Positions 2,151 through 14,962 of a DNA stretch of 19,760 bases are shown piece by piece (position 1 is the first letter of the stretch; each line of letters begins with the position of its first letter). The notes beneath the pieces are model-generated. The model was not told where the DNA came from and did not search any database. It saw only the letters and a program-made list of their open reading frames with translations. The translations under genes and the position numbers were made by a program. The stretch lies in the IMG/VR virus record IMGVR_UViG_2698536651_000010, positions 1-19,760 of that record; one strand, written 5' to 3'. The DNA is from a virus. Lineage: Duplodnaviria; Heunggongvirae; Uroviricota; Caudoviricetes.

Positions 2151-2752
2151 GGATTCACTCTCATTGTGTCAATAACATGGACCGCCCCGCCTTCATGCGC
2201 GGTGCCACCGGAAATAATCGTTTCGTTGATATACGGATAGATCGTGATTTCTTCGCCAAGATAGCTGGCGGCTCCCACCCAATGCGGGCCGCTGGTCTGC
2301 AGATTGATGGACATGCCGATCATGTGGCGGCTACATGGTTTGGCATCGCTTATCAGTCGCTCAAGTTCCAGATAGGTATCTTCAGTGATGCCATGGTCCT
2401 GCACTCCGATATCCAGGCGAAACGTGCCCGGTGCCTCTCCGGTCTGCCACCACTCAATAATGCGGATCAGAAAGCCGAACGGCTCCACCACCCGCCGCAC
2501 GGCACTGGTGGTCCCTTTATGCTGATGAATATAAAAAGCATCCTTCACCACCTGGCGCTTGACGCTTTCTGTCCAGCCCTCGTCCCAGCGATCCACAGAG
2601 AACGCCCAGGCGAGATAAGGCAGGAAACTGACCGGACAGGTTGCCGGATTCCACAAGTCACGAAGCGGCACCTGCAGATCAGAAATCCCGCTGCAGGTTT
2701 GCGCCAGTCGGCGCTCCAGTGGTGTTGAACCCGGTGGCAGCAGACTATTCAT
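2147..2752 (-). CDS. I: Baseplate assembly protein gpI
   Basis: 201 aa. MNSLLPPGSTPLE...RDLWNPATCP...LPYLAWAFSVDRWDEGW...GTFRLDIGV...ERLISDAKPCSRH matches the P2 gpI family as I recall it. ATG 2750-2752 preceded by AGGA; stop overlaps the gpH start. Confidence 0.85.
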   Translation of the reverse strand: MNSLLPPGSTPLERRLAQTCSGISDLQVPLRDLWNPATCPVSFLPYLAWAFSVDRWDEGWTESVKRQVVKDAFYIHQHKGTTSAVRRVVEPFGFLIRIIEWWQTGEAPGTFRLDIGVQDHGITEDTYLELERLISDAKPCSRHMIGMSINLQTSGPHWVGAASYLGEEITIYPYINETIISGGTAHEGGAVHVIDTMRVNP

Positions 2753-3422
2753 CCGTTCCTCCGTTGGTTACGCTCCACTGCGTACATGATGCCGCCTGTG
2801 TTTTGTTCAGGACCACATCCGCCAGAGGAGAAGCCAGCTCATCGGACTGCTCTTTTTTGGTAAACAGCGCCGTGACGCGGGCAAACAGGGACGGTTTGTC
2901 GTCCTGGATTTCTTCCAGTTCGATCACCGTTTCCTCTGCAGCGGTAAAGAGATTGGCAGGATTCTGCTTGCGGTTTGCCAGCGGGTTATGGGCTGCACTG
3001 GCGCTGAATGTCAGCATTTCCGTACCCAGACTGGCAGGGTCATCAGTGGCAGCCAGGCCGACCAGGTAGGCTTTGCCCGTATCAGCGAACTTCGGGCTGA
3101 CTTCCATAGAGGTGAATAATTTCTGGCCTTTTTTCACCAGTTCCACCAGGGACTCCGTTGGCTCAACGTCGGCATACAGCGCCATCTTGCCTGCCAGCGG
3201 ACCTGCCGTGATTTCTTCAGCAAACAGCGCCGTCACCTTGCCGTAGCGGTTAAAGGTGCTGTCCGGCAGATAAGACTTGATGTGCTCAAGGTTAATCAGC
3301 GCGGTATACACCGCCGGGTTGTAGCTGGCTGCCATCTGTTCCAGCCATTCACGCTGGATTTCGCGTCCGTCGGTGGTGGCACCTTCCACCCCGATGCGAA
3401 AACGCTTTGCTTTCACTGTCAT
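2745..3422 (-). CDS. O: Capsid scaffolding protein gpO-like, C-terminally truncated and running directly into gpI (likely deletion junction)
   Basis: 225 aa. MTVKAKRFRIGVEGATTDGR...INLEHIKSYLPD...YGKVTALFAEEI...SMEVSPKFADTGKAYLVGLAATDDPASLGTE... resembles P2 gpO (about 284 aa) over roughly the first 190-200 residues. The tail ...SCTQWSVTNGGTDE* has no O-like character, and the stop overlaps the gpI start. Confidence 0.7.
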   Translation of the reverse strand: MTVKAKRFRIGVEGATTDGREIQREWLEQMAASYNPAVYTALINLEHIKSYLPDSTFNRYGKVTALFAEEITAGPLAGKMALYADVEPTESLVELVKKGQKLFTSMEVSPKFADTGKAYLVGLAATDDPASLGTEMLTFSASAAHNPLANRKQNPANLFTAAEETVIELEEIQDDKPSLFARVTALFTKKEQSDELASPLADVVLNKTQAASCTQWSVTNGGTDE

Positions 3423-3564: not shown

Positions 3565-5331
3565 ATGAACACCACACTGACACCCGCAGATCTCGATCCC
3601 CGTCGGCAGGCCATGCTGCTGTACTTTCAGGGATACCGCGTAGCCCGCATTGCTGAAATGCTGGGCGAGAAAGTTGCAACCGTTCACAGCTGGAAAAAAC
3701 GCGACAAGTGGGGTGACTATGGGCCGCTGGATCAGATGCAGCTCACCACCGCCGCACGCTACTGCCAGCTCATCATGAAGGAGCACAAAGAAGGGAAAGA
3801 TTTCAAAGAGATTGACCTGCTGGCGCGCCAGTCTGAGCGCCACGCGCGGATCGGCAAGTTTAACAATGGCGGCAACGAATCCGACTTAAACCCTAACGTC
3901 GCCAACCGCAACAAAGGCCCACGCCGTCAGCCGGAAAAGAATGTTTTCACCGATGAGCAGATTGAGAAGCTGGAAGAAATCTTCCATTCCTCCATGTTCA
4001 ACTACCAGCGCCACTGGTGGGAAGCCGGAAAAACCAACCGCATCCGCAACCTGCTGAAGTCACGCCAGATCGGCGCGACCTTTTACTTTGCCCGTGAAGC
4101 CCTGATTGACGCCCTGCTGACCGGACGTAACCAGATTTTCCTTTCCGCCAGCAAGGCACAGGCCCACGTCTTTAAGCAGTACATCATCGACTTCGCCAAA
4201 GAAGTGGAGGTGGAGTTGAAAGGCGATCCGATGGTGCTTCCTAACGGGGCCACGCTTTACTTCCTCGGCACCAATGCCCGCACGGCCCAGAGTTATCACG
4301 GCAACCTGTATCTGGATGAATATTTCTGGATACCGAAATTCCAGGAACTGCGCAAAGTGGCTTCCGGTATGGCTATTCACAAGAAATGGCGACAAACCTA
4401 TTTTTCCACGCCATCCAGCCTGACACACAGTGCTTATCCGTTCTGGTCCGGTGCGCTATTCAACCGTGGGCGCAACAAAGCCGATAAGGTGGACATCGAC
4501 CTGTCCCACAGCAATCTGGCCCCCGGCCTGCTGTGCGCAGACGGGCAATACCGCCAGATTGTCACCGTGGAAGATGCAGTGCGCGGCGGATGTAACCTGT
4601 TCGACCTCGATCAGTTACGCATGGAGTACAGCCCGGACGAATACCAGAACCTGCTGATGTGCGAGTTTGTGGACGATCTCGCGTCTGTGTTCCCACTCAG
4701 CGAGCTGCAGGCGTGCATGGTGGACAGCTGGGAAGTCTGGACCGACTTTCATGCACTGGCACTGCGCCCATTTGGCTGGCGCGAAGTGTGGATCGGTTAT
4801 GACCCGGCGAAAGGTACGCAGAACGGCGACAGTGCCGGATGTGTGGTGGTGGCACCGCCAGCCGTGCCGGGCGGCAAGTTCCGCATTCTTGAGCGTCACC
4901 AGTGGCGCGGGATGGACTTTCGCGCCCAGGCTGACGCCATCAAAAAACTGACCGAACAGTACAACGTGACCTATATCGGCATCGACTCAACCGGCGTTGG
5001 TCACGGAGTTTATGAGAACGTGAAAGCGTTCTTTCCTGCCGTCCGGGAGTTTGTCTACAACCCCAACGTTAAAAACGCCCTGGTACTCAAGGCCTACGAC
5101 ATTATCAGCCACCGCCGTCTGGAGTTTGACGCCGGGCACACCGACATTGCGCAGTCATTCATGGCAATCCGTCGCGCCACCACCGCCAGTGGCAACCGCC
5201 CGACCTATGAAGCCAGCCGCAGCGAAGAAGCCAGCCACGCCGATCTGGCCTGGGCAACGATGCACGCACTGTTTAACGAACCGCTGCAGGGCGAATCCGC
5301 CAATACCAGCAATATTGTGGAGATTTTTTGA
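3565..5331 (+). CDS. P: Terminase ATPase (large) subunit gpP
   Basis: 588 aa. N-terminus MNTTLTPADLDPRRQAMLLYFQGYRVARIAEMLGE... is typical of P2 gpP. Length matches. Stop TGA overlaps the Q start (TGATG). Confidence 0.95.
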   Translation: MNTTLTPADLDPRRQAMLLYFQGYRVARIAEMLGEKVATVHSWKKRDKWGDYGPLDQMQLTTAARYCQLIMKEHKEGKDFKEIDLLARQSERHARIGKFNNGGNESDLNPNVANRNKGPRRQPEKNVFTDEQIEKLEEIFHSSMFNYQRHWWEAGKTNRIRNLLKSRQIGATFYFAREALIDALLTGRNQIFLSASKAQAHVFKQYIIDFAKEVEVELKGDPMVLPNGATLYFLGTNARTAQSYHGNLYLDEYFWIPKFQELRKVASGMAIHKKWRQTYFSTPSSLTHSAYPFWSGALFNRGRNKADKVDIDLSHSNLAPGLLCADGQYRQIVTVEDAVRGGCNLFDLDQLRMEYSPDEYQNLLMCEFVDDLASVFPLSELQACMVDSWEVWTDFHALALRPFGWREVWIGYDPAKGTQNGDSAGCVVVAPPAVPGGKFRILERHQWRGMDFRAQADAIKKLTEQYNVTYIGIDSTGVGHGVYENVKAFFPAVREFVYNPNVKNALVLKAYDIISHRRLEFDAGHTDIAQSFMAIRRATTASGNRPTYEASRSEEASHADLAWATMHALFNEPLQGESANTSNIVEIF

Positions 5332-6359
5332 TGGGAAAGAGTAAGAAGAACCGCGCTGCGGCGACGAAACAGATCCAGCTTAAAAGTCAAACTACAGCCG
5401 AAGCATTCAGCTTCGGCGATCCCGTTCCTGTTCTGGACCGCCGAGAATTACTGGACTATGTGGAATGCGTACAGATGGACCGTTGGTATGAGCCACCAGT
5501 GAGTTTCGACGGGCTGGCGCGCACCTTCCGCGCTGCCGTGCATCACAGTTCCCCGATTGCAGTAAAGTGCAACATTCTGACCAGTACCTATATCCCTCAT
5601 CCGCTGCTCAGCCAACAGGCTTTTTCGCGTTTTGTGCAGGACTATCTGGTATTTGGTAACGCCTATCTGGAGAAACGCACGAACCGCTTCGGTGAAGTTA
5701 TCGCCCTTGAACCTGCGCTGGCAAAATACACCCGACGCGGGTTAGACCTGGATACCTACTGGTTTGTGCAATACGGTATGACACCCCAGCCGTATCAGTT
5801 CACGAAAGGCAGCATTTTTCATCTGATGGAACCGGACATCAACCAGGAGATCTACGGCCTGCCCGGTTATCTTTCTGCCATTCCGTCAGCTCTGCTCAAC
5901 GAGTCCGCCACGCTGTTCCGCCGCAAGTATTACATTAACGGCAGTCATGCTGGCTTCATCATGTACATGACCGATGCCGCGCAGAACCAGGAGGACGTGA
6001 ACAACCTCCGCAATGCGATGAAAAGCGCCAAAGGCCCTGGCAACTTCCGCAACTTGTTTATGTACTCGCCTAACGGCAAAAAGGACGGGCTTCAGATCAT
6101 TCCTCTGTCAGAAGTCGCGGCGAAGGATGAGTTTCTGAATATCAAGAACGTGAGCCGGGATGACATGATGGCGGCGCATCGTGTGCCACCGCAAATGATG
6201 GGGATTATGCCTAATAATGTTGGAGGGTTTGGGGATGTAGAGAAAGCTGCTAATGTTTTTGTGAGGAATGAACTCATCCCTTTACAAAAAAGACTAGAAG
6301 AGCTGAACGAATGGATAAATGAAGAAGTTATTAATTTCGTGAGTTATTCAATTACCTAA
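5331..6359 (+). CDS. Q: Portal protein gpQ
   Basis: About 342 aa from ATG 5331 (the ORF track starts at TTG 5328). Size and position downstream of gpP match the P2 portal; translationally coupled to P. Confidence 0.9.
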   Translation: MGKSKKNRAAATKQIQLKSQTTAEAFSFGDPVPVLDRRELLDYVECVQMDRWYEPPVSFDGLARTFRAAVHHSSPIAVKCNILTSTYIPHPLLSQQAFSRFVQDYLVFGNAYLEKRTNRFGEVIALEPALAKYTRRGLDLDTYWFVQYGMTPQPYQFTKGSIFHLMEPDINQEIYGLPGYLSAIPSALLNESATLFRRKYYINGSHAGFIMYMTDAAQNQEDVNNLRNAMKSAKGPGNFRNLFMYSPNGKKDGLQIIPLSEVAAKDEFLNIKNVSRDDMMAAHRVPPQMMGIMPNNVGGFGDVEKAANVFVRNELIPLQKRLEELNEWINEEVINFVSYSIT

Positions 6360-6364
6360 TAAAC

Positions 6365-6395
6365 AAAAAGGCCATTAAATGGCCTTTTTGTTTTT
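6365..6395. terminator. Bidirectional rho-independent terminator shared by convergent Q and retron RT
   Basis: AAAAAGGCCATTAAATGGCCTTTTTGTTTTT: a GC stem flanked by an A-run and a T-run. It overlaps the last codons of the RT. Confidence 0.7.
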
Positions 6396-7349
6396 AGGAA
6401 AAAGAACACTTAGATCAACCCCATATGTTTCAGACATTTTATTTGAGAAAGTCATCAATTTTCTATAGTTTTTCTTGTCTACACTTTTAACAAACGCAAT
6501 AAGTCCTTTAACATGTTCGAAATCAGAATTTCTTTTTACCGCCAGATAATGGATCTTACTTCTAATTTCGCGATAACGTATTCTGCCAACTCCAACATTA
6601 TCAATAGATAAAACGAGCCCAGTAACCTCCTTCCTTGCTTTGGGGCCATGAATCGCAACTTTATTATAATTAACCTTCAAAGATTCACTTGGTATTATAG
6701 AGCATACAAATGACTTAGCTTTAAGTATTTTTTTTAAAGATTGAGCAGATAAAGTCAAATCATCGGCATATCGAGTAAATACGATCCCCTTACTACCTGC
6801 ATATCCATGTATTCTATAATCTAATTTAGTTAAAACAAGATTCGCAATCTTTGGAGAAGATGGTGCACCTTGAGGTAGCGAACCATTAAATGAACACAAT
6901 CTTGCTAAAGCATTAGAAATAGTAGAGTTATACCCCAGAGAATGAAAAACAGTATAGATTTTCTCTATCAGAATAGTATTAAAACAATCTTCTAAATCAA
7001 TATTTAATACATAGTTAGCTCCTACATGTGGGCTGGCATTATTTAATATTGATTGCCCTTTTTCAAAGCCTTTGGAAAATGGGGATGAATGTAACTTATC
7101 AAGGATGTTTCTTAACACCCAAGCTTGCAATGCCTTCAGCTCACGTGATGGCTGTGAAATGATGCGGGATCTCTTGCCATCTCTTTTTGGCAACGAATAA
7201 ACCTTATAGTATTTGTCAGCACGATAAATGTACAACCGGAGTATGTCTACTGATAAACGCATTTCTCTAGACATATCCTCTAAAGAGGACATAACAGGCA
7301 ATCCAAGATTGCGTAAGCGAAAAACCTGAGATGGTGTTGCGGAAGTCAT
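6375..7349 (-). CDS. Retron-type reverse transcriptase
   Basis: 324 aa. RT motifs: NIDLEDCF (motif A), LPQGAPSSPKIANL (motif B), RYADDLTLS (YADD catalytic motif C). Also the retron-associated NAxxH (NASPH) and VTG (EVTGLVL) motifs. ATG sits 2 nt after the a2 repeat, whose AAGGG acts as the SD. Region is AT-rich. Confidence 0.9.
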   Translation of the reverse strand: MTSATPSQVFRLRNLGLPVMSSLEDMSREMRLSVDILRLYIYRADKYYKVYSLPKRDGKRSRIISQPSRELKALQAWVLRNILDKLHSSPFSKGFEKGQSILNNASPHVGANYVLNIDLEDCFNTILIEKIYTVFHSLGYNSTISNALARLCSFNGSLPQGAPSSPKIANLVLTKLDYRIHGYAGSKGIVFTRYADDLTLSAQSLKKILKAKSFVCSIIPSESLKVNYNKVAIHGPKARKEVTGLVLSIDNVGVGRIRYREIRSKIHYLAVKRNSDFEHVKGLIAFVKSVDKKNYRKLMTFSNKMSETYGVDLSVLFPKNKKAI

Positions 7350-7351
7350 GA

Positions 7352-7510
7352 GCGCACCCTTACGTCATAAAAATCAGATTCCGAAGTGAAAGGAGAACAT
7401 CGGGAGATGTTCTCCTTTCAATGAGGGAACTGGTAAAACTTCAGATTGTATGTAGGACAGCGAAACACTGTCCAGTGAACTTCCGGAGAAGCCACTCGCT
7501 AAGGGTGCGC
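7352..7510 (-). ncRNA. Retron msr-msd non-coding RNA flanked by a1/a2 inverted repeats
   Basis: 11-bp inverted repeats GCGCACCCTTA (7352-7362) and TAAGGGTGCGC (7500-7510). Perfect 15-bp stem with 4-nt loop at 7387-7420 (msd-like hairpin). Short hairpin GGACAG/CTGTCC at 7455-7473 (msr-like). A G follows a1 in the transcript. Confidence 0.8.
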
Positions 7511-8404
7511 AAAACGCATCCTATCATAGTGGAGTATTGTTTTACCACGATTTTCGAAGTTCATCATATCCAGTCGTAGATTGTCCAAAGCCTTTCGATC
7601 AAAATGCTCAAGAACGTATTGCATACCAATTTCTGTAATATGGTATCCTTGAACTGAACGTCTAATTATTGACTCTTTAATCAAGCTTGAAATAACAGAC
7701 TTAACGATAATTTCACAAAGAATAGCATCTTTCTTAGTCACCAAATGTAATAGCTCATATAGAAGTATATTATCTATACCATCCATCAAATATATACACG
7801 GCAGTATAAAACGCCGAGCGTGAAGAATATTATCTATTGAGTGATTAACTGGGTTATTTTTTTTGATGTCATTAATACTTTTTATAATTCTATTATAAAA
7901 AGCTTTACCTGTACTCAAGCTTTCAAGAGTCGACAAATCTCCTCGCAATACTGCACCGCTATTAGCACGCCGAAGCAGTTTTATAGGCCCATAATTAAGA
8001 AAGCTTTTTTTAAGTTTGAATTTGTCATCCTGAAGACATATCATTTTTTTGCACAGTTTTTCATTATTTGAAAATGCGCCCAATTCAGCGAAAGAACCTG
8101 GGCTTTCAGGAATAATAATAATAACATCGACTGAATCAGCTAAAATATTCTCCAAACTTAAAAGACTATGCTGACCTTGTCCATACAAAAGCTCATCAAA
8201 CAACTCCTCAGGATAGAATATTTCTATTTTGGGATGTGTTTCCAACACTCTTTTAACTTTATTTCTACAAAAAAACGGATCATTCAAATCGCCCCCGCAA
8301 AGGAAAACAGTAACTTTATTTTTATTTTTCTGTTGAAAAAGCCGACTTTTAATTAAATTTGCCAGATTTTGCTTCTGCAACTCCGGAATAGTTTTCTTTT
8401 TCAT
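7499..8404 (-). CDS. Putative retron effector: N-terminal NDT-like (nucleoside deoxyribosyltransferase/LOG-like) domain plus C-terminal probable winged-helix DNA-binding domain
   Basis: About 301 aa from ATG 8402-8404 (track ORF starts at GTG 8410). Glycine-rich strand VTVFLCGG and IIIPESPGSFAELGAF resemble the NDT/LOG-type active-site region. Stop TAG (7499-7501) lies inside the a1 repeat. Very AT-rich. Confidence 0.7.
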   Translation of the reverse strand: MKKKTIPELQKQNLANLIKSRLFQQKNKNKVTVFLCGGDLNDPFFCRNKVKRVLETHPKIEIFYPEELFDELLYGQGQHSLLSLENILADSVDVIIIIPESPGSFAELGAFSNNEKLCKKMICLQDDKFKLKKSFLNYGPIKLLRRANSGAVLRGDLSTLESLSTGKAFYNRIIKSINDIKKNNPVNHSIDNILHARRFILPCIYLMDGIDNILLYELLHLVTKKDAILCEIIVKSVISSLIKESIIRRSVQGYHITEIGMQYVLEHFDRKALDNLRLDMMNFENRGKTILHYDRMRFAHP

Positions 8405-8918
8405 ATCCACTTTTCCTCAGAATGATCCCATCTTTTATACAACATTCAAATCTGAGTTTCCACCCGCTGCGCGCGCTCGTATCCCCGCCACGCCTGCCCG
8501 CTTTATGTAGTGGTTTTCATGCACCTGCATGACATAAGCAAAAGCACGCCAGTTCTGGCTGACTTCAGCAAAAACGATCCTCAAACGATCATGCGATCTC
8601 ATGCGTCATAGTCATGCGCTGCCAAGGGAAGCGTAAATCCGTATCTGAATGACTGCTGAAAAGCGAATCATACGGGTTTACAAAGATGAAAGTTCGCTGT
8701 GAGCGAGAAGCGAACCTTGCAACTTTGTTGGCACAGTTTTAACACCAATTTTTTGAGGATAGCTAGAAAACTTGTGGCATAAAGGATCAGTTTCCCGATC
8801 GAACTTTTTATCAAGAAGGGCTCATAGCAATCGCCAGAAGAAGTGATGTTAAAGTATTGAGCTCGGCGTTAAGATTAAATAAATTACAGACTAATCCAAT
8901 GTTTTGTGGAAGGATAAG

Positions 8919-9962
8919 ATGGCAGTCAAGCGCGCATACTACGGTAACGATAGTGACCGAGACTACTTAGAGCGGATATTTCAGTCAGCTAACATTAACT
9001 TTCTCATCGGATCAGGTGCATCCCTCCCAGCGATTAAAGTACTGGGGACAATCGAAACGGATCTTCAGCAGCTTATTAATGATGAACAGGAAGATGAATA
9101 CTTAAGGATGGCAGCTGACTTTTTGTCAGATGTTTGGCTACCTCATGAATGCATGTTGAAGCGCGGCTACGGCACCCCCTTCGCACCTCAGGTGATCACC
9201 GATTTGGAATGTACCCGTGCAAATTATGATGCATTTATGTCTTCACTGGAAAAGATACTGACCCGCCGCCGAACTGGCCTACTTCCGAGGCGTATTAACG
9301 TTTTTACAACTAATTATGATTTATTCATCGAAGAAGCTGCCACACGTAATAACAATATTCTTTTTAATGATGGATTCAATAGAAGAGCAAGTATTTTGGG
9401 AGATGCGGAATTTGATGCGGGTAGCTTTAATCATTCTGTAAGTGCAACCGGAAATCTGTATAATTATAAAGTTGAGCTTCCTACTGTTAACCTTATAAAA
9501 CTTCATGGTTCGCTCTCTTGGCAGCATTCTAAAGGGAAAATCATTTATCGTATTGCAGATATTAAGCCGCTTGACTTTCCCACCCTAGCCGAAATGAAAG
9601 GATGGGTACTTGCTCATGCACTTATTCTTCCACGTAAGGAGAAGTTTAAAGAGACTCTACTACAGAACGTTTATTATGATTTACTGAGAACCTATTCCAA
9701 CGAGCTTGATAAAGAAGCAACTTTACTAATTGTCTTTGGGTTCTCATTTGCTGATGAGCACATTGAAACGATAACTAAAAAAGCCCTGCGCAACGCCACC
9801 CTGAAGCTACTGATCTTTGCTTTCGATGAGGCCAGTGTTAACGGCTTTATGGAGAAATTTCGGGATTACTCAAACGTAGAGATTATTTATCGGCCGGGAA
9901 GAAATGTTGATTTTCCGGTAATGAATAACATTATCACGTGCTATCTGGGAGGCTCGAGATGA
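8919..9962 (+). CDS. SIR2-family (sirtuin-like) NADase of a SIR2-HerA defence pair
   Basis: ATG 8919 with AAGGA SD (track ORF starts at TTG 8904). Motifs FLIGSGAS (NAD-binding glycine loop), VFTTNYD, KLHGS (catalytic His), LIVFGFSFAD. Stop overlaps the HerA start (ATGA). Confidence 0.85.
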   Translation: MAVKRAYYGNDSDRDYLERIFQSANINFLIGSGASLPAIKVLGTIETDLQQLINDEQEDEYLRMAADFLSDVWLPHECMLKRGYGTPFAPQVITDLECTRANYDAFMSSLEKILTRRRTGLLPRRINVFTTNYDLFIEEAATRNNNILFNDGFNRRASILGDAEFDAGSFNHSVSATGNLYNYKVELPTVNLIKLHGSLSWQHSKGKIIYRIADIKPLDFPTLAEMKGWVLAHALILPRKEKFKETLLQNVYYDLLRTYSNELDKEATLLIVFGFSFADEHIETITKKALRNATLKLLIFAFDEASVNGFMEKFRDYSNVEIIYRPGRNVDFPVMNNIITCYLGGSR

Positions 9963-11818
9963 GCAGGCATTTTACTGAAGAGGAAGCGGTGCTCCGTATA
10001 GGCGAAGTCTGTGAGGTTTCTGGACGCGCTGTGACAATTTTGGTCGATAAAAACAAAAATCTCAGTGACTTGTTTTATCAGGGAAAAGTTCTAAGAAATG
10101 TATCAGTGGGTAGCTTCATTGAGATCAAAAAAGGTTTCATGAGCCTGATCGGCAAGGTTGAAGCGGAACGAATCATTGAGGAAAAACATCTCGCTGGGAG
10201 CGGCAGTGATGCCTGGCGATATCGGCGATACCTGACCTCTACTCTTACGGGTTACATTGATCGTACTGGTTGCTTCATTGGTGGTTCGCGTGAACTACCT
10301 CTCATCGGCAATGAAGTCTTCGTGGTAACTGAAGAGATGATACAGACGGTTCATCAGATAGCTGATGCAGACGAAACTGTAATGAGGTTTACTCGTACAG
10401 ATCTTGAAGATATTGAAATTGCACTACCAATCAATGGTCTTATTAATTCCCACATTGCCATTTTCGGTAATACAGGCAGCGGAAAGTCAAATACCCTAGC
10501 CGCGCTATACAAAGCAGGTATTGCCCAAGTTAAACATATTCTCGGCAACCACTTTAGTGAAAGATGCAAATTTATTCTATTCGACTTTAATGGAGAATAT
10601 ACTGCCCCACGCTGTATTACTGACGAGAAGACGGTTTATAATCTCAACACGCACCATGCAAATGGTGACAAACTTCCTCTACCCAGAGAGGTTCTACTTG
10701 AGCATGATATGCTCTCAGTTCTAACCGATGCAACAGACAAAACACAGAAACCTTTCCTGAAGAGAGTTCTTGAGTTTCGCAAGAAAGTGATGACCGCTGA
10801 CAATCCTCTTGAGTTTATGCGCAATATCCTGAAGAAAAAAGTCAGACAAAATCTCTTTAGTAGCGACAAACCCAAATGCGATACTATAAATCAGTTTCTT
10901 AGCCCAATTTTCAAAGATGACCCAGAACTTATATCTGATCTTGAGTATCATTCAACTGCATATAAATGGAAATTGAGGGGTGGTAGTATTTTCAATACAG
11001 AAGCTGATACTGAGCGCTCCTATCTATTCAGTCTTGCAAGCAATTTTTCATTTAAAACTGATATGATTGAAGAACTGTTGGACTTTATGTACTTACAGTT
11101 AATACAGGAATATTTATCTAACAAGTCTAACCCTGAACATATTTCACCAGTTATAAATAGAATGAGTGCTAACCGTAAAGATATAGCCAAAATATTTGAT
11201 ACTTCCGGACAGTCTGATTTTTGGGGTGAACATAATTTCACGGTTGTGAATCTAAATATGGTTAATATAACCATGAAAAAAACGCTTCCTCTTTTGATAG
11301 CCAAGTGGGCTTACAATATGAAGAAAATGTCTACAGAGAAATCTACACTGCACATCATTATAGATGAAGCCCACAATATTTTGTCTAATACTTCTTTTCG
11401 GGAAACGGAAAGTTGGAGAGATTATCGTCTGGAAACTTTTGAGGAAATCATAAAGGAGGGGAGAAAATTTGGAGTTTTTATCACAATTTCCAGTCAACGC
11501 CCTAATGATATATCGTCGACAATCATATCCCAAGCACACAATTATTTTATTCATCGCCTTATTAATCAGAATGATCTGTACGCAATTGAAAAATCAGTAT
11601 CATATATAGATCGACTGACTGAAGAGTCGATTCCAACGCTATCTACAGGAACCTGTATTTTTAGTGGTATCGTCTGCCCCATGCCGCTCAAATTAAGGGT
11701 AGCTGAACTTCCAATTGAAGAAAAACCTAAGAGTAATACTATTTCCTTCAACGATTTAATACCTGAGAGGCTGGGAGAGGATGACCAGAGCGACTACGTA
11801 ATAACCAGCCCTCACTAA
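9959..11818 (+). CDS. HerA-like (FtsK/HerA superfamily) ATPase, partner of SIR2
   Basis: ATG 9959 with GGGAGG SD (track starts at GTG 9938). Walker A GNTGSGKS and Walker B/DEAH-like HIIIDEAH. About 620 aa, typical of HerA partners in SIR2-HerA systems. Confidence 0.85.
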   Translation: MSRHFTEEEAVLRIGEVCEVSGRAVTILVDKNKNLSDLFYQGKVLRNVSVGSFIEIKKGFMSLIGKVEAERIIEEKHLAGSGSDAWRYRRYLTSTLTGYIDRTGCFIGGSRELPLIGNEVFVVTEEMIQTVHQIADADETVMRFTRTDLEDIEIALPINGLINSHIAIFGNTGSGKSNTLAALYKAGIAQVKHILGNHFSERCKFILFDFNGEYTAPRCITDEKTVYNLNTHHANGDKLPLPREVLLEHDMLSVLTDATDKTQKPFLKRVLEFRKKVMTADNPLEFMRNILKKKVRQNLFSSDKPKCDTINQFLSPIFKDDPELISDLEYHSTAYKWKLRGGSIFNTEADTERSYLFSLASNFSFKTDMIEELLDFMYLQLIQEYLSNKSNPEHISPVINRMSANRKDIAKIFDTSGQSDFWGEHNFTVVNLNMVNITMKKTLPLLIAKWAYNMKKMSTEKSTLHIIIDEAHNILSNTSFRETESWRDYRLETFEEIIKEGRKFGVFITISSQRPNDISSTIISQAHNYFIHRLINQNDLYAIEKSVSYIDRLTEESIPTLSTGTCIFSGIVCPMPLKLRVAELPIEEKPKSNTISFNDLIPERLGEDDQSDYVITSPH

Positions 11819-11831
11819 TTAACAAAGTGCT

Positions 11832-11851
11832 GAAGCGGTAACGACCGCTTC
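11832..11851. terminator. Candidate hairpin between convergent HerA and DinI-like genes
   Basis: GAAGCGGT-AACG-ACCGCTTC, an 8-bp perfect stem. No strong U-tract on either side, so terminator function is uncertain. Confidence 0.3.
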
Positions 11852-11962
11852 TAGCACAAAGCGGACGATCACTTATCAAAATGCCCGCCCACCTTACGCC
11901 TCGTTTCACTCGTTGCCCAAACTAGCCCCCATCAGAATGAATCCTCCTGGAGGCAACGTTTC

Positions 11963-12196
11963 TTAATGCAGCCAGCTGTCGTCTTCCCACACTTTCTGCA
12001 TAATTTTCATCACTTGTTTTCTTTCTTCATCCAGTTGCAGTCCGGTCAGTTCCACACCGTTAGAGCTACCTTTGCGGATACGAATTACCGTTTTGGGATA
12101 CAGGGGGCGCAGATTGCGGTAAAGCTCGGATTCAAGGGCGTCCATGGTAGACTGGCTAATCTTCTGCTCTTTATCGATCATTATTTCAATGCGCAT
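11963..12196 (-). CDS. DinI-family protein
   Basis: 77 aa from the internal ATG (MRIEIMIDK...), with GAGGTG SD. Aligns in pattern with E. coli DinI (MRIE..., ...DAL..EL..., ...EERKQ...W...D.W). The track ORF carries an unlikely 24-aa N-terminal extension. Confidence 0.7.
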   Translation of the reverse strand: MRIEIMIDKEQKISQSTMDALESELYRNLRPLYPKTVIRIRKGSSNGVELTGLQLDEERKQVMKIMQKVWEDDSWLH

Positions 12197-12206
12197 AAAA
12201 GTCACC

Positions 12207-12395
12207 TCAGCTGATGATATCCATTGAGCGGTTGTATTCGTGGCTTCTGATTTTTGCCATGAGTTCATCTGTCAGTTCAGAAACCCACTGCAAAGCCAGC
12301 CCCTTCTCTTCATCACTACACTCACTAGCCGCTACAAGCTTAAGAAAAAAATCAATGCGCTGGAGCTTCAAAGACTCCAAAAAATAGTCCTGCAT
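12207..12395 (-). CDS. Small hypothetical protein, first gene of the LexA-controlled operon (possible Tum-like antirepressor module)
   Basis: 62 aa. ATG 12393-12395 preceded by a strong SD (AGGAGG). Lies about 43 bp downstream of a perfect LexA box. The Tum-like role is inferred from position and SOS control only. Confidence 0.5.
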   Translation of the reverse strand: MQDYFLESLKLQRIDFFLKLVAASECSDEEKGLALQWVSELTDELMAKIRSHEYNRSMDIIS

Positions 12396-12437
12396 CTTTC
12401 CTCCTATAACACCAAATCAATACTGTATACATAACCA

Positions 12438-12453
12438 CTGTTTATATTCACAG
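12438..12453. promoter_or_regulatory. LexA (SOS) box
   Basis: CTGTTTATATTCACAG is a perfect CTGT-N8-ACAG palindrome with an AT-rich spacer, just upstream of the small ORF/DinI-like operon on the minus strand. Confidence 0.7.
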
Positions 12454-12468
12454 TATATAATAATCTTA

Positions 12469-12499
12469 CTGATGTAAAACGTTTTTTTACGTTCATCAG
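12469..12499 (-). terminator. Candidate terminator hairpin downstream of repA
   Basis: CTGATG...CATCAG outer stem with inner AACGT/ACGTT pairing and a T/A-rich loop, followed by AT-rich sequence. Imperfect stem. Confidence 0.35.
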
Positions 12500-12547
12500 C
12501 CTGATATGCCTGGTATTATTAAGAGCACGAATTGTTAAACCGCGTAA

Positions 12548-14962
12548 TTAATACAGATCCCGCCACTTATCATCTTCCTGCAAACGCTGGTTCCGATAGA
12601 AGATACGCAGGCCTGCTCCTGACGGAATACTGCCGCCGCGAAGGAGTAAATCGACCTCTTTCTCGCTACTATCAAATCCTCTGGACTTCAGCTCATAGAC
12701 GAGCTGCTGTCGCTGATGGTCTGTAATTCGCTGTTTGTAGTCTTTACGCCGTTTCGGTTTAACCAAGCATAACCTTGCTGCCAGTTCCCGGCGCTCTTTT
12801 TTGCTCATACTGTGCAGGTAATCGTGCAACTCCTTGTCATCCATGCGGGTGATATCCGTTCTGGTATCCCCATCAGCTGATTTGTCTTTCCCTTGTTGAT
12901 TCAAATTTTCAGCAAGGGGACAGTTATTGCCACGAGTCCAAGGGGCGCAAGCGCCCTGGTCGGCTGCCGCCTCCTGAACGTCAACGGCCTTACGAACTAT
13001 TTTCCACTTCACTGCATGAGTGCAGATCTTGCCCTCTGCAATGGGTGACCAGATGCCATAAATACGAATACCGTGATCACCATAGGCGGTCGGCTCTTCG
13101 TTGATTTCATAAGCGGTTCTGATCAAGTGATATTTGCGGGGAACCAGTACGCCGCCCTGCTTCATGATGTAGGTGGCAAAACAACCAGCATCAGCAGCAG
13201 CCAGGATGGCATCAAGGCGCGGGTTATCCAGTACCGGCGCACCTGCTTTTTTGTCACCCTGTTGCCTTGCCGCCTGACCAGCCAGCAATCGCAGTTCACG
13301 GTAAGCCTGACGCCCCGGAATGCCAAAGAAGCGGAATTGCTGAACACGATGCAGAGACGCCCAGGCATTAACGTATTCAGCGTTATCACGCAGGGATTTA
13401 CCCGTTTCCTTACTGATCTCGCCAGCCAGACCACGCCCGTCAATATTCTTACTGATATATTTCGCAATGTAGCTTGTCGGCGTTCCTTTGCGCGGGTTTA
13501 TCAGCTCAGACTTAAAGCGTGGCCCCGTGTTATTGCCCAGCTCCTCGCGGTCTTCACGGATGGCAAACTTACGCAACAATGCAGTAATGGCGCGGCGGTC
13601 TTTTTTGCGCATGAAACACAACAGGTGCCAGTGAACTGTGCCGTCATGATGCGGCTCAGCCACCCGCACGCCATACCAGCGCAACCCGGCTTTGTGCATA
13701 GCCTTACGAAATGCAGCAAACATGCCGACCAGATAATCGCTGCTTTGTCTTACTGTCGCGTTGGTCCAGGTCGGGTTTGGCCTACCGTTATTTAGCGTGG
13801 AATGGAAACGTGACGGACAGGTGATGGTGTAGAAAACGGCGCAGTCACCACGCATTTCCGCGATAAGCTCCAGGCCTTTAACACAGGTCATCATCTCGTT
13901 GCGGCGATGCGCCGGGTTGCTGCTGCTGGCGTTTACCACATCCTCCATGTTCAGCGTGTCGCCGTCTTCGTTCACCAGTTCATGAGAACGGAAAAACTCC
14001 AGCGACTTACGGCGCTGCTCACGTTTATGCATCACGGCTTCATAGCTGACATAGGGAGATGCTTTTTTGCTGACCAGGCAGACAGCACGCAACTGCTCTT
14101 CCCGCCATTCGCAACGCATCTTCCATAATTTCCGATACCACCAGTCGGCGCACAGCATACGCGCCAGCGACCCCGGAATGAGTTCATAGGGCACGGGTTT
14201 ACGGCGGTTTCTTTTCCGGCGGAGTTGCTCAAACGCAGGCGGTATGACATCCAGTCGCAGGGTTTCTGCTGCCACCTTTTCCCATGTCTTGCGGATTTCT
14301 TCTGGCTTAACGTCATCGGTGGCATACAAATCACCACAAGCGGCATCAAGGCACATGCTCATATGCGCAGCGACAAGGGTAGACAGGCGCTTCACCTGAT
14401 CCTGACTCATTTCAGGCAGGATAAGCAGGCCATCCAGCCCTTCATGGCTTGCCATAAAGCGAAAAGAAGTGGATAGCTGACAGTCGCGGACATGCTCCAG
14501 TCGTTCCAGACATGGCTTAATCGTCTCACGCAAATAGCGGGAATAAGCCTTTGGCCTGCCCAGGCTGCTGAAATATTCAATACGTTGCATCAGCGGCTTG
14601 CTGATATGGGAAGGCTGGGCATTGACGTCAGCCAGAATGACCATGTCTGGATTAAAACGCTGCTGCTCATGCGCCAGCTTTGCCCGGCTAATGAGCTTAT
14701 CCTGCTCCATTTCGCGCTGGACAGGATCACGGGATTCATTAAAGAAATAACGCTCCCAGACCTGATCACTCAGTGCCTCGCGGCGCAGTTGTTCCTGCTC
14801 GTTATCGGCAGCGTACAGAGTGATCAGGTTTGAAAGTGCAGAAACCGGCGCAACTTCCGCCGGGTCCTGATAAGGGTTAATAGCCTTTTTCGGGCTGTTC
14901 CATGAGAATGCTGCGGCGACCTCGTTAAAGCCGCTGCAGTTGTTCATATCATCATGGCTCAT
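12548..14962 (-). CDS. A: Replication initiation endonuclease (P2 gpA / 186 RepA family, HUH rolling-circle type)
   Basis: 804 aa. HUH-type motif ...[11 protein letters not shown].... Large size and position at the end of the early operon fit the family. ATGA overlap with dam upstream. Confidence 0.9.

What the first reader, a model, noticed from the sequence alone, without database searches (positions are those of the whole stretch)
6375..8404. Retron with effector-ncRNA-RT gene order in the portal-side variable region
The sequence shows an RT with retron-specific NAxxH and VTG motifs plus YADD, an msr-msd ncRNA immediately upstream flanked by 11-bp a1/a2 repeats, and an upstream gene whose stop lies inside a1. 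That upstream protein has an NDT/LOG-like catalytic signature (ESPGSFAELG) and a C-terminal segment that looks like a winged helix, which matches the effector class of Eco1/Sen2-type (type II) retrons. The effector-first gene order and the very AT-rich composition mark it as acquired cargo. I cannot tell from memory whether this is an already named retron.
Basis: partly seen in the sequence, partly recalled or inferred. Interest (0 to 1): 0.7.

Follow-up and report, generated by a model that had tools for sequence, protein, structure and literature searches.

The report
Eco1-like retron in P2 prophage
This is a genuine but ordinary anti-phage retron, a diverged sister of the well-studied E. 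coli retron Eco1 (Ec86), and it sits at the same spot in a P2-like prophage where Eco1 sits in strain BL21.

Summary
Window 6375-8404 (minus strand) holds a complete three-part retron: a 301-aa NDT-like effector (7499-8404), a 159-nt msr-msd ncRNA (7352-7510) closed by a perfect 11-bp a1/a2 repeat, and a 324-aa reverse transcriptase (6375-7349).

Both proteins pass the curated retron models. Their best solved-structure matches are the Retron-Eco1 (Ec86) RT (58% identity) and its effector (50% identity; predicted fold TM 0.86). The ncRNA structure is kept by compensatory changes across 11 related loci.

The effector-first order is not unusual. It is the standard order of type II-A3 retrons. BL21's Ec86 lies in the same orientation, right next to the portal gene of a P2-like prophage at the same chromosomal site.

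RefSeq already annotates both genes, and four of 5,426 complete E. coli genomes carry this allele. I found no name or experiment for it.

The predicted msDNA hairpin (about 82 nt) has a different sequence from Ec86's. It lacks the CCWGG site through which phage Dcm is reported to trigger Ec86, and four effector residues that contact msDNA also differ. The mechanism is probably Eco1-like with a different trigger.

Verdict: new member of a known kind, low interest.

The parts
7499..8404 (-). Effector gene, 301 aa: N-terminal NDT-like N-glycosidase lobe and C-terminal winged-helix-like lobe. An alternative GTG start lies at 8410.
   Evidence: PADLOC NDT_II-A 2.6e-97. NCBIfam STM3845_fam 186 bits, cut-off 100. 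Ec86 effector 5e-92 over the full length, 50% identity. AlphaFold pLDDT 80.5; Foldseek TM 0.86 to 8qbl_E. The residues matching Ec86 E65, D69, E84, S100, E106, N112, N113, F128, K131, S133 and N136 are all conserved.
7352..7510 (-). msr-msd non-coding RNA, 159 nt from a1 to a2
   Evidence: Fold -72.5 kcal/mol, z = -9.5. Aligns with the Ec86 ncRNA and 9 others; 23 of 43 pairs are compensatory and 96% of cells are paired. No Rfam family matches.
7500..7510 (-). a1 repeat (GCGCACCCTTA). It also encodes the effector's C-terminal Ala-His-Pro and the first two bases of its stop codon.
   Evidence: Perfect 11-bp inverted repeat with 7352-7362. Same sequence as a1 of Ec86.
7499..7499 (-). Predicted branching guanosine (priming 2'-OH). 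It is also the third base of the effector's TAG stop codon.
   Evidence: The G of TTAGCGAG is invariant in all 11 aligned ncRNAs. The assignment as branch point rests on analogy with G14 of the Ec86 msr, which I recall from memory and did not test here.
7364..7445 (-). Predicted msd template. It would give an msDNA of about 82 nt (81 if Eco1's is counted as 85) with a 15-bp perfect upper stem.
   Evidence: Boundaries were set by aligning the conserved flanks AATCTGA and TGACGTAAGGG with the 86-nt msd of Ec86. The DNA folds at -19.1 kcal/mol, z = -7.0. It contains no CCWGG and no GATC.
7352..7362 (-). a2 repeat (TAAGGGTGCGC). Its AAGGG run lies 7 nt before the RT start codon.
   Evidence: plus direct reading of the sequence.
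6375..7349 (-). Retron reverse transcriptase, 324 aa
   Evidence: Pfam RVT_1 1e-24. PADLOC RT_II-A 4.6e-123. NCBIfam retron_St85_RT 272 bits, cut-off 235. Ec86 RT 5.6e-124, 58% identity. NAxxH, YADD and VTG are present and invariant among relatives.
6358..6398 (.). Palindromic hairpin flanked by an A-run and a T-run, between the portal stop (6359) and the RT stop (6375). Likely a bidirectional terminator that ends the retron operon.
   Evidence: -23.9 kcal/mol, z = -6.4. The consensus terminator scan did not list it.
8476..8494 (-). cos-like site that bounds the retron's cargo slot on the side away from the portal gene
   Evidence: 15 of 19 bases match the annotated cos of phage 186, and the first 13 are identical. 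It lies in a 160-bp block shared with 85 P2-like phage records.

Best explanation
This is an intact type II-A3 retron, a diverged sister of Retron-Eco1 (Ec86). It is carried as anti-phage cargo between cos and the portal gene of a P2-like prophage.

What the sequence and homology show: an NDT-like/winged-helix effector, an msr-msd ncRNA and a retron RT lie in one minus-strand unit.

What I infer from the published Eco1 work:
1. The RT primes from the 2'-OH of the G just after a1 (7499) and copies 7445..7364 into an msDNA hairpin of about 82 nt that stays linked to the msr RNA.
2. The RT-msDNA complex binds the effector and holds it inactive, probably in filaments.
3. A phage product that modifies or disturbs the msDNA hairpin releases the effector.
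4. The effector then hydrolyses NAD(P)+ or depletes adenine nucleosides, and the infection aborts.

The hairpin here has a different sequence and no CCWGG site. The effector residues that touch the hairpin in Eco1 also differ. The trigger is therefore probably not the Dcm methylation reported for Eco1.
For: Family assignment:
- RT: PADLOC RT_II-A 4.6e-123 and NCBIfam retron_St85_RT above its cut-off. Ec86 RT is the best solved match at 5.6e-124.
- Effector: PADLOC NDT_II-A 2.6e-97 and NCBIfam STM3845_fam above its cut-off. It matches the Ec86 effector over its full length at 5e-92. The predicted fold matches the Eco1 effector at TM 0.86.
- All catalytic, ligand-binding and dimer-interface residues named in 10.1101/2023.08.16.553469 (E65, D69, E84, S100, E106, N112, N113, F128, K131, S133, N136) are conserved.

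ncRNA:
- a1/a2 have the same sequence as in Ec86.
- Fold z = -9.5.
- 23 of 43 pairs are compensatory, with 0 of 500 shuffles reaching this; 96% of cells are paired against about 40% when slid.

Context:
- Same gene order and same position next to the portal gene as Ec86 in BL21.
- Same order in 9 of 9 related loci.
- The gpA-gpQ region next to cos is a known defence hotspot that holds retrons (PMC9122126).

Eco1 mechanism: PMC12673091 and 10.1101/2023.08.16.553469.

Different trigger:
- The msd has no CCWGG, while Ec86 has one.
- The msDNA contacts K149, K177, K185 and R219 of the Ec86 effector are G, N, D and I here.
Against: - Nothing here shows that msDNA is made or that phages are blocked. 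All mechanistic steps are carried over from Eco1, at only 50-58% protein identity.
- The carrying prophage is defective, with a 6.65-kb deletion. Selection on its cargo cannot be assumed, although the retron ORFs are intact.
- No promoter could be located. The promoter scan found no more sites than in shuffled sequence.
- The msd boundaries and the branch point are set by analogy only.
- The absence of a Dcm site argues against one trigger but does not identify another.
Confidence: 0.9

Rival explanations
1. The retron is an inactive relic riding in a decaying prophage. The genes look intact, but the system no longer makes msDNA or defends the cell.
For: The prophage in the window lacks 6.65 kb of tail, lysis and head genes. 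Only 4 of 5,426 complete E. coli genomes carry the allele. Several cluster members are truncated RT or effector fragments.
Against: Both ORFs are full length and all catalytic residues are kept. The ncRNA helices are perfect. The locus is 99.7-100% identical in four unrelated strains, at least one of which (NZ_CP128581) has an intact prophage. The exact effector sequence is found on 498 contigs.
Confidence: 0.06
2. It works exactly like Eco1, including the trigger: a phage Dcm-type cytosine methylase modifies the msDNA hairpin and activates the effector.
For: It is the closest relative of Eco1 among solved systems. Dcm is the reported Eco1 trigger (10.1101/2023.08.16.553469; PMC12673091).
Against: The predicted msd contains no CCWGG, whereas Ec86 has one in the hairpin stem. 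Mutating that site abolished Ec86 defence according to the preprint. Only 4 of 11 related ncRNAs carry CCWGG. Four residues that contact the hairpin are not conserved.
Confidence: 0.1
3. The RT belongs to another reverse-transcriptase class (group II intron, DGR, or Abi/UG), and the flanking repeat is a coincidence.
For: Pfam gives only the generic RVT_1 domain.
Against: Retron-specific models score 272-408 bits, against 60 bits for the group II intron model and about 30 bits for the Drt models. Solved group II intron RTs reach only about 1e-5. The RNA structure covaries.
Confidence: 0.01

Closest known systems
Retron-Eco1 (Ec86), type II-A3, E. coli B/BL21
   Same: - Three parts in the order effector, ncRNA, RT.
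- The 11-nt a1/a2 repeat and the TTAGCGAG branch context have the same sequence.
- Two msr hairpins and one long msd hairpin.
- The effector stop codon overlaps a1.
- The N-terminal RT segment FRLRNLGLPVM is identical.
- All catalytic and dimer-interface residues of the effector are kept.
- Same slot, directly beside the portal gene of a P2-like prophage inserted next to rcdA/ybjJ.
   Different: - RT is 58% identical and the effector 50% identical; DNA identity is about 68%.
- The ncRNA is 159 nt against about 169 nt, and the predicted msDNA about 82 nt against 86 (or 85) nt.
- The msd hairpin has a different sequence, with a 15-bp perfect upper stem and no CCWGG.
- Effector K149, K177, K185 and R219 are G, N, D and I here; R141 is K.
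- The effector has a 7-residue deletion between its two lobes.
Retron-Sen2 (St85), type II-A1
   Same: An NDT-like effector with a DNA-binding C-terminus. NCBI names both groups 'retron St85 family'.
   Different: The RT clade and ncRNA type differ: clade 1 against clade 9 in PMC7736814. From memory, the gene order in Sen2 is ncRNA, effector, RT. The other two PADLOC RT_II-A models score 197-223 bits, against 408 bits for the best one.
Defence hotspot of P2-like phages between gpA and gpQ (Rousset et al. 2022, PMC9122126)
   Same: AT-rich cargo between the replication gene A and the portal gene Q, next to cos. It holds a retron and SIR2+HerA, both listed by that paper as known hotspot contents.
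   Different: Here the cos-like site (8476-8494) splits the cargo in two. The retron is on the portal side and SIR2-HerA on the gpA side. I did not check whether the paper makes this distinction.

Membership tests
Retron (general) | RT of the retron clade with the NAxxH, YADD and VTG motifs | tested here: met
   The motifs are at residues 104-108, 194-197 and 242-244 and are invariant in 18 relatives. Retron models score far above group II intron and Drt models.
Retron (general) | Adjacent ncRNA closed by the a1/a2 inverted repeat, with a priming G after a1, msr hairpins and an msd hairpin | tested here: met
   perfect 11-bp repeat, z = -9.5, 23 compensatory pairs, 0 of 500 shuffles. Helix 1 (a1/a2) was used to set the sequence boundaries, so only helices 2-5 are independent tests.
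Retron (general) | Production of branched RNA-linked msDNA | not testable with these tools
   This needs expression of the locus and a urea gel or sequencing. An msDNA of about 82 nt is predicted.
Type II-A3 retron (Retron-Eco1 family) | RT closest to Eco1 / the RT_II-A model | tested here: met
   PADLOC PDLC02941 scores 408 bits over model positions 2-301 of 309. Ec86 RT is the best solved match at 5.6e-124. I did not build a tree against the Mestre clade 9 set.
Type II-A3 retron (Retron-Eco1 family) | Effector with an N-terminal NDT-like domain, a catalytic Glu and a C-terminal DNA-binding domain | tested here: met
   E107 aligns with the catalytic E106 of Ec86. Direct fold matches to true NDTs and to winged-helix domains are weak (Foldseek E about 0.1, probability 0.9-0.98), so the fold call rests mainly on the Eco1 effector structure.
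Type II-A3 retron (Retron-Eco1 family) | Gene order effector, ncRNA, RT ('Nuc_deoxy+Retron') | tested here: met
   (9 of 9 related loci); PMC7736814.
Type II-A3 retron (Retron-Eco1 family) | Filament of RT-msDNA-effector; NAD(P)+ hydrolysis on activation; abortive infection | not testable with these tools
   Only indirect evidence: the interface residues E84, N112 and N113 and the RT N-terminal segment are conserved.
Type II-A3 retron (Retron-Eco1 family) | Activation by Dcm methylation of a CCWGG site in the msDNA hairpin. This is reported for Eco1 and is not a defining feature of the family. | tested here: not met
   There is no CCWGG in the ncRNA. Only 4 of 11 relatives have one.
P2-like phage defence hotspot | Variable cargo between gpA and the portal gene gpQ, next to cos | tested here: met
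   Portal at 5328-6359 and replication endonuclease at 12548-14962. cos-like site at 8476-8494. GC falls to 33-42%.

The most novel reading that the evidence does not exclude
The swapped msd hairpin, together with the changed msDNA-contact residues of the effector, retargets an Eco1-type filament to a different phage cue, such as another DNA-modifying enzyme, a nuclease or a DNA-binding protein. If so, the alleles at this prophage slot form a natural series of sensors with the same enzyme but different triggers.
Probability: 0.45. Interest if true: 0.4.

Novelty: new member of a known kind. Interest (0 to 1): 0.2.

Why it matters
It adds little to what is already known. Type II-A3 retrons have been classified, solved by cryo-EM and shown to defend against phages. 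P2-like prophages are known to carry retrons in this hotspot, and RefSeq already labels both genes.

Its practical value is as a natural comparison for Eco1. It has the same architecture and the same genomic slot, and every catalytic residue reported for the Eco1 effector is conserved. Its msDNA hairpin differs, it lacks the Dcm site, and the effector contacts to the hairpin differ. Swapping hairpins between the two retrons would be a direct test of how the msDNA sets trigger specificity. The RT-ncRNA pair could also serve as one more scaffold for retron-based genome editing.

Tried and rejected
- Rfam: no match at gathering threshold over the whole window. The permissive search of 7250-7600 gave only chance hits to microRNA and snoRNA families. 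No Rfam family matched this ncRNA.
- Pfam (the local copy): nothing for the effector, although records elsewhere carry PF28093 STM3845.
These loci were not used. I fetched close relatives through exact-protein look-ups instead. One of those look-ups, P0002, found nothing.
- Promoter scan: no more sites than in shuffled sequence, so no promoter is claimed.
- Deposited phage genomes: none carries this retron, even at 65-70% identity.
- Literature: no paper holds the accession WP_032301626. The retron census tables (PMC10849725) list only Eco1 from E. coli among II-A3 entries and contain none of this retron's sequences. PMC12548924 held nothing relevant.
- Considered and rejected: a group II intron, DGR or Abi RT; Sen2-type (II-A1) membership; and effector-first order as a mark of novelty.

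Full report
**What is in the sequence**

On the minus strand of 6375-8404 there are two ORFs with a 149-bp gap between them. The upstream ORF (7499..8404 from its ATG) encodes 301 aa and contains ESPGSFAELG. A GTG two codons further up, at 8410, would give 303 aa. The downstream ORF (6375..7349) encodes 324 aa and contains NASPH, YADD and VTG.

A perfect 11-bp inverted repeat, GCGCACCCTTA / TAAGGGTGCGC, lies at 7500-7510 and 7352-7362. The effector stop codon TAG occupies 7501..7499. Its first two bases are the end of a1, and its G is the base that follows a1.

GC content is 33-42% from about 6000 to 12500 and 52-60% on both sides.

**The proteins**

- RT, family models: Pfam RVT_1 1e-24; PADLOC RT_II-A 4.6e-123, 408 bits, over nearly the whole model; NCBIfam retron_St85_RT 272 bits against a cut-off of 235. 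The group II intron model gets 60 bits and the Drt models about 30.
- RT, solved structures: the best match is the Ec86 RT at 5.6e-124. Other retron RTs reach 1e-34 or worse, and group II intron RTs about 1e-5. Global identity to the Ec86 RT is 58%.
- Effector, family models: PADLOC NDT_II-A 2.6e-97 and NCBIfam STM3845_fam 186 bits against a cut-off of 100.
- Effector, solved structures: the Ec86 effector end to end at 5e-92, with 50% identity.
- Effector fold: an AlphaFold model built from 36 homologues (pLDDT 80.5, pTM 0.74) superposes on the Retron-Eco1 effector at TM 0.86 (8qbl_E, E = 1.4e-28). It gives only weak matches to true nucleoside deoxyribosyltransferases and to winged-helix DNA-binding domains. 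Residues 197-256 of the model form three helices followed by a beta-hairpin, the layout expected of a winged helix.

**The RNA**

The 159-nt transcript from a1 to a2 folds into the classic retron shape: the a1/a2 stem, two msr hairpins and one long msd hairpin. The energy is -72.5 kcal/mol, z = -9.5.

The Ec86 ncRNA from BL21 has the same a1/a2 sequence and the same TTAGCGAG context. I fetched nine further loci through exact look-ups of related RTs from Erwinia, Pantoea, Enterobacter, Yersinia, Serratia, Rheinheimera, Shewanella and others. I extracted their intergenic RNAs and aligned all eleven.

The consensus structure has 43 pairs, and 23 of them keep pairing through changes on both sides. 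96.2% of cells are paired, against 38-45% when the 3' partner is slid by 1-3 columns. No shuffle out of 500 reaches the observed values. One caveat applies: I set the sequence ends by looking for the a1/a2 repeat, so helix 1 is paired by construction. Helices 2-5 are independent tests.

Rfam has no matching family.

**Predicted msDNA**

I aligned the conserved flanks (AATCTGA on the 5' side, TGACGTAAGGG on the 3' side) with the 86-nt msd of Ec86. This places the template at 7445..7364, 82 nt. It would be 81 nt if Eco1's msDNA is counted as 85, as the structures suggest (PMC12673091).

The DNA folds into a hairpin with a 15-bp perfect upper stem, -19.1 kcal/mol, z = -7.0. The branch point should be G7499, by analogy with G14 of the Ec86 msr. 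That position is recalled from memory and was not tested.

**Context**

The window is a P2-like prophage. It has a terminase ATPase at 3565-5331, a portal gene at 5328-6359 and a replication endonuclease at 12548-14962, with integrase at the far end.

In BL21(DE3), Ec86 lies in the same place and orientation: portal, then RT, ncRNA and effector on the opposite strand. That prophage sits at the same chromosomal site next to rcdA/ybjJ. Another E. coli genome with Ec86 shows the same arrangement. Pantoea and Enterobacter relatives again have the RT directly beside a portal gene.

All nine related loci have the order effector, gap of about 150-175 nt, RT. Mestre et al. place Eco1 in subtype II-A3 and write it as 'Nuc_deoxy+Retron' (PMC7736814). 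The effector-first order is therefore the norm for this subtype.

Rousset et al. described the cos-proximal region between gpA and gpQ of P2-like phages as a defence hotspot that holds retrons, among other systems (PMC9122126).

**How common and how well known**

Four of 5,426 complete E. coli genomes carry this allele at 99.7-100% identity. RefSeq annotates both genes, as 'retron St85 family RNA-directed DNA polymerase' and 'retron St85 family effector protein'. About 48 genomes carry Ec86-type loci at roughly 68% DNA identity.

The exact effector sequence occurs on 498 contigs in the large protein collection. The nearest relatives outside E. coli are 74-75% identical; the effector of that pair is from Serratia oryzae. 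The next nearest are 61-68% identical, from Erwinia.

No deposited phage genome carries the retron. I found no paper that names or tests it. The accession search was empty, and the retron census lists only Eco1 from E. coli in II-A3. My literature reach is limited to open-access text.

**Mechanism**

For Eco1, published work reports four things (10.1101/2023.08.16.553469; summary in PMC12673091):
- RT-msDNA binds the N-glycosidase effector and assembles into filaments that keep it inactive or primed.
- A phage Dcm methylase modifies a CCWGG site in the msDNA hairpin.
- The activated effector hydrolyses NAD(P)+ and depletes adenine nucleosides.
- The cell undergoes abortive infection.

Here the Ec86 effector residues E65, D69, E84, S100, E106, N112, N113, F128, K131, S133 and N136 are all conserved. 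R141 becomes K. The RT N-terminal segment, reported as needed for Eco1 dimerisation, is nearly identical. I therefore expect the same assembly and the same enzymatic output.

The differences are concentrated in the sensor. The msd hairpin sequence is different and holds no CCWGG or GATC. The effector residues that contact the hairpin in Eco1 (K149, K177, K185, R219) are G, N, D and I here. Only 4 of the 11 related ncRNAs contain CCWGG, so a Dcm site is not a family trait. My inference, which is untested, is that this allele responds to a different phage cue.

**Verdict**

This is a new member (an allele-level sister) of a well-characterised kind, in a known hotspot, and it is already annotated automatically. 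Interest is low. Its one useful feature is that it forms a natural hairpin-swap partner for Eco1.

Noticed in passing
window 8476-8494 (minus strand), within the conserved block 8457-8620: A cos-like site, GGCGTGGCGGGGATACGAG, matches 15 of 19 bases of the annotated cos of phage 186. It lies in a 160-bp block shared at 86-93% identity with 85 P2-like phage records. The retron therefore lies between cos and the portal gene, at the left end of a packaged genome. In phage 186 that interval is only 177 bp. The other cargo lies across cos on the gpA side.
   Followed up: partly
window 8919-9962 (+) and 9959-11818 (+): A SIR2 + HerA defence pair sits next to the retron on the other side of the cos-like site (PADLOC SIR2 6.3e-211, HerA 6.1e-267). 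The two genes overlap by 4 bases.
   Followed up: partly
window about 2839-2840; fused ORF 2745-3422 (-): The prophage is defective. Compared with the otherwise 99.7% identical prophage of NZ_CP128581, 6.65 kb is missing. The deletion joins the baseplate J gene to the capsid scaffold O gene and removes tail, lysis, head-completion, small terminase and major capsid genes.
   Followed up: partly
window 7499-7510 (-): This stretch is dual-coded. The a1 repeat GCGCACCCTTA plus the following G spells Ala-His-Pro-stop, the conserved C-terminus of the effector, and the predicted branching G is the last base of that stop codon. The same overlap occurs in Ec86 and in four of the nine other related loci.
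   Followed up: partly
window 7347-7362 (-): The a2 repeat contains a Shine-Dalgarno-like AAGGG run 7 nt before the RT start codon. RT translation may therefore compete with a1/a2 pairing. This is an inference from the sequence only.
   Followed up: no
window 6358-6398: An almost perfect palindrome flanked by an A-run and a T-run lies between the convergent portal and RT genes (-23.9 kcal/mol, z = -6.4). It is probably a bidirectional terminator, and the last RT codons lie inside it. The consensus terminator scan missed it.
   Followed up: partly
window 11963-12196 (-) and 12207-12395 (-): A DinI-like gene and a small hypothetical gene lie between HerA and the replication gene A. They are conserved in the BL21 prophage and in other P2-like prophages, so they are part of the phage backbone and not cargo.
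   Followed up: no
L089 4006-4929; L090 4193-5682; L091 4330-5610: Related Eco1-like retrons in other genera have further defence genes directly after the RT. Serratia has a gene with a faint SIR2_2 Pfam hit, a Logan (SRA-run) assembly contig has a Thoeris-like ThsA-Macro plus ThsB-TIR pair, and Rheinheimera has a second RT gene.
   Followed up: no
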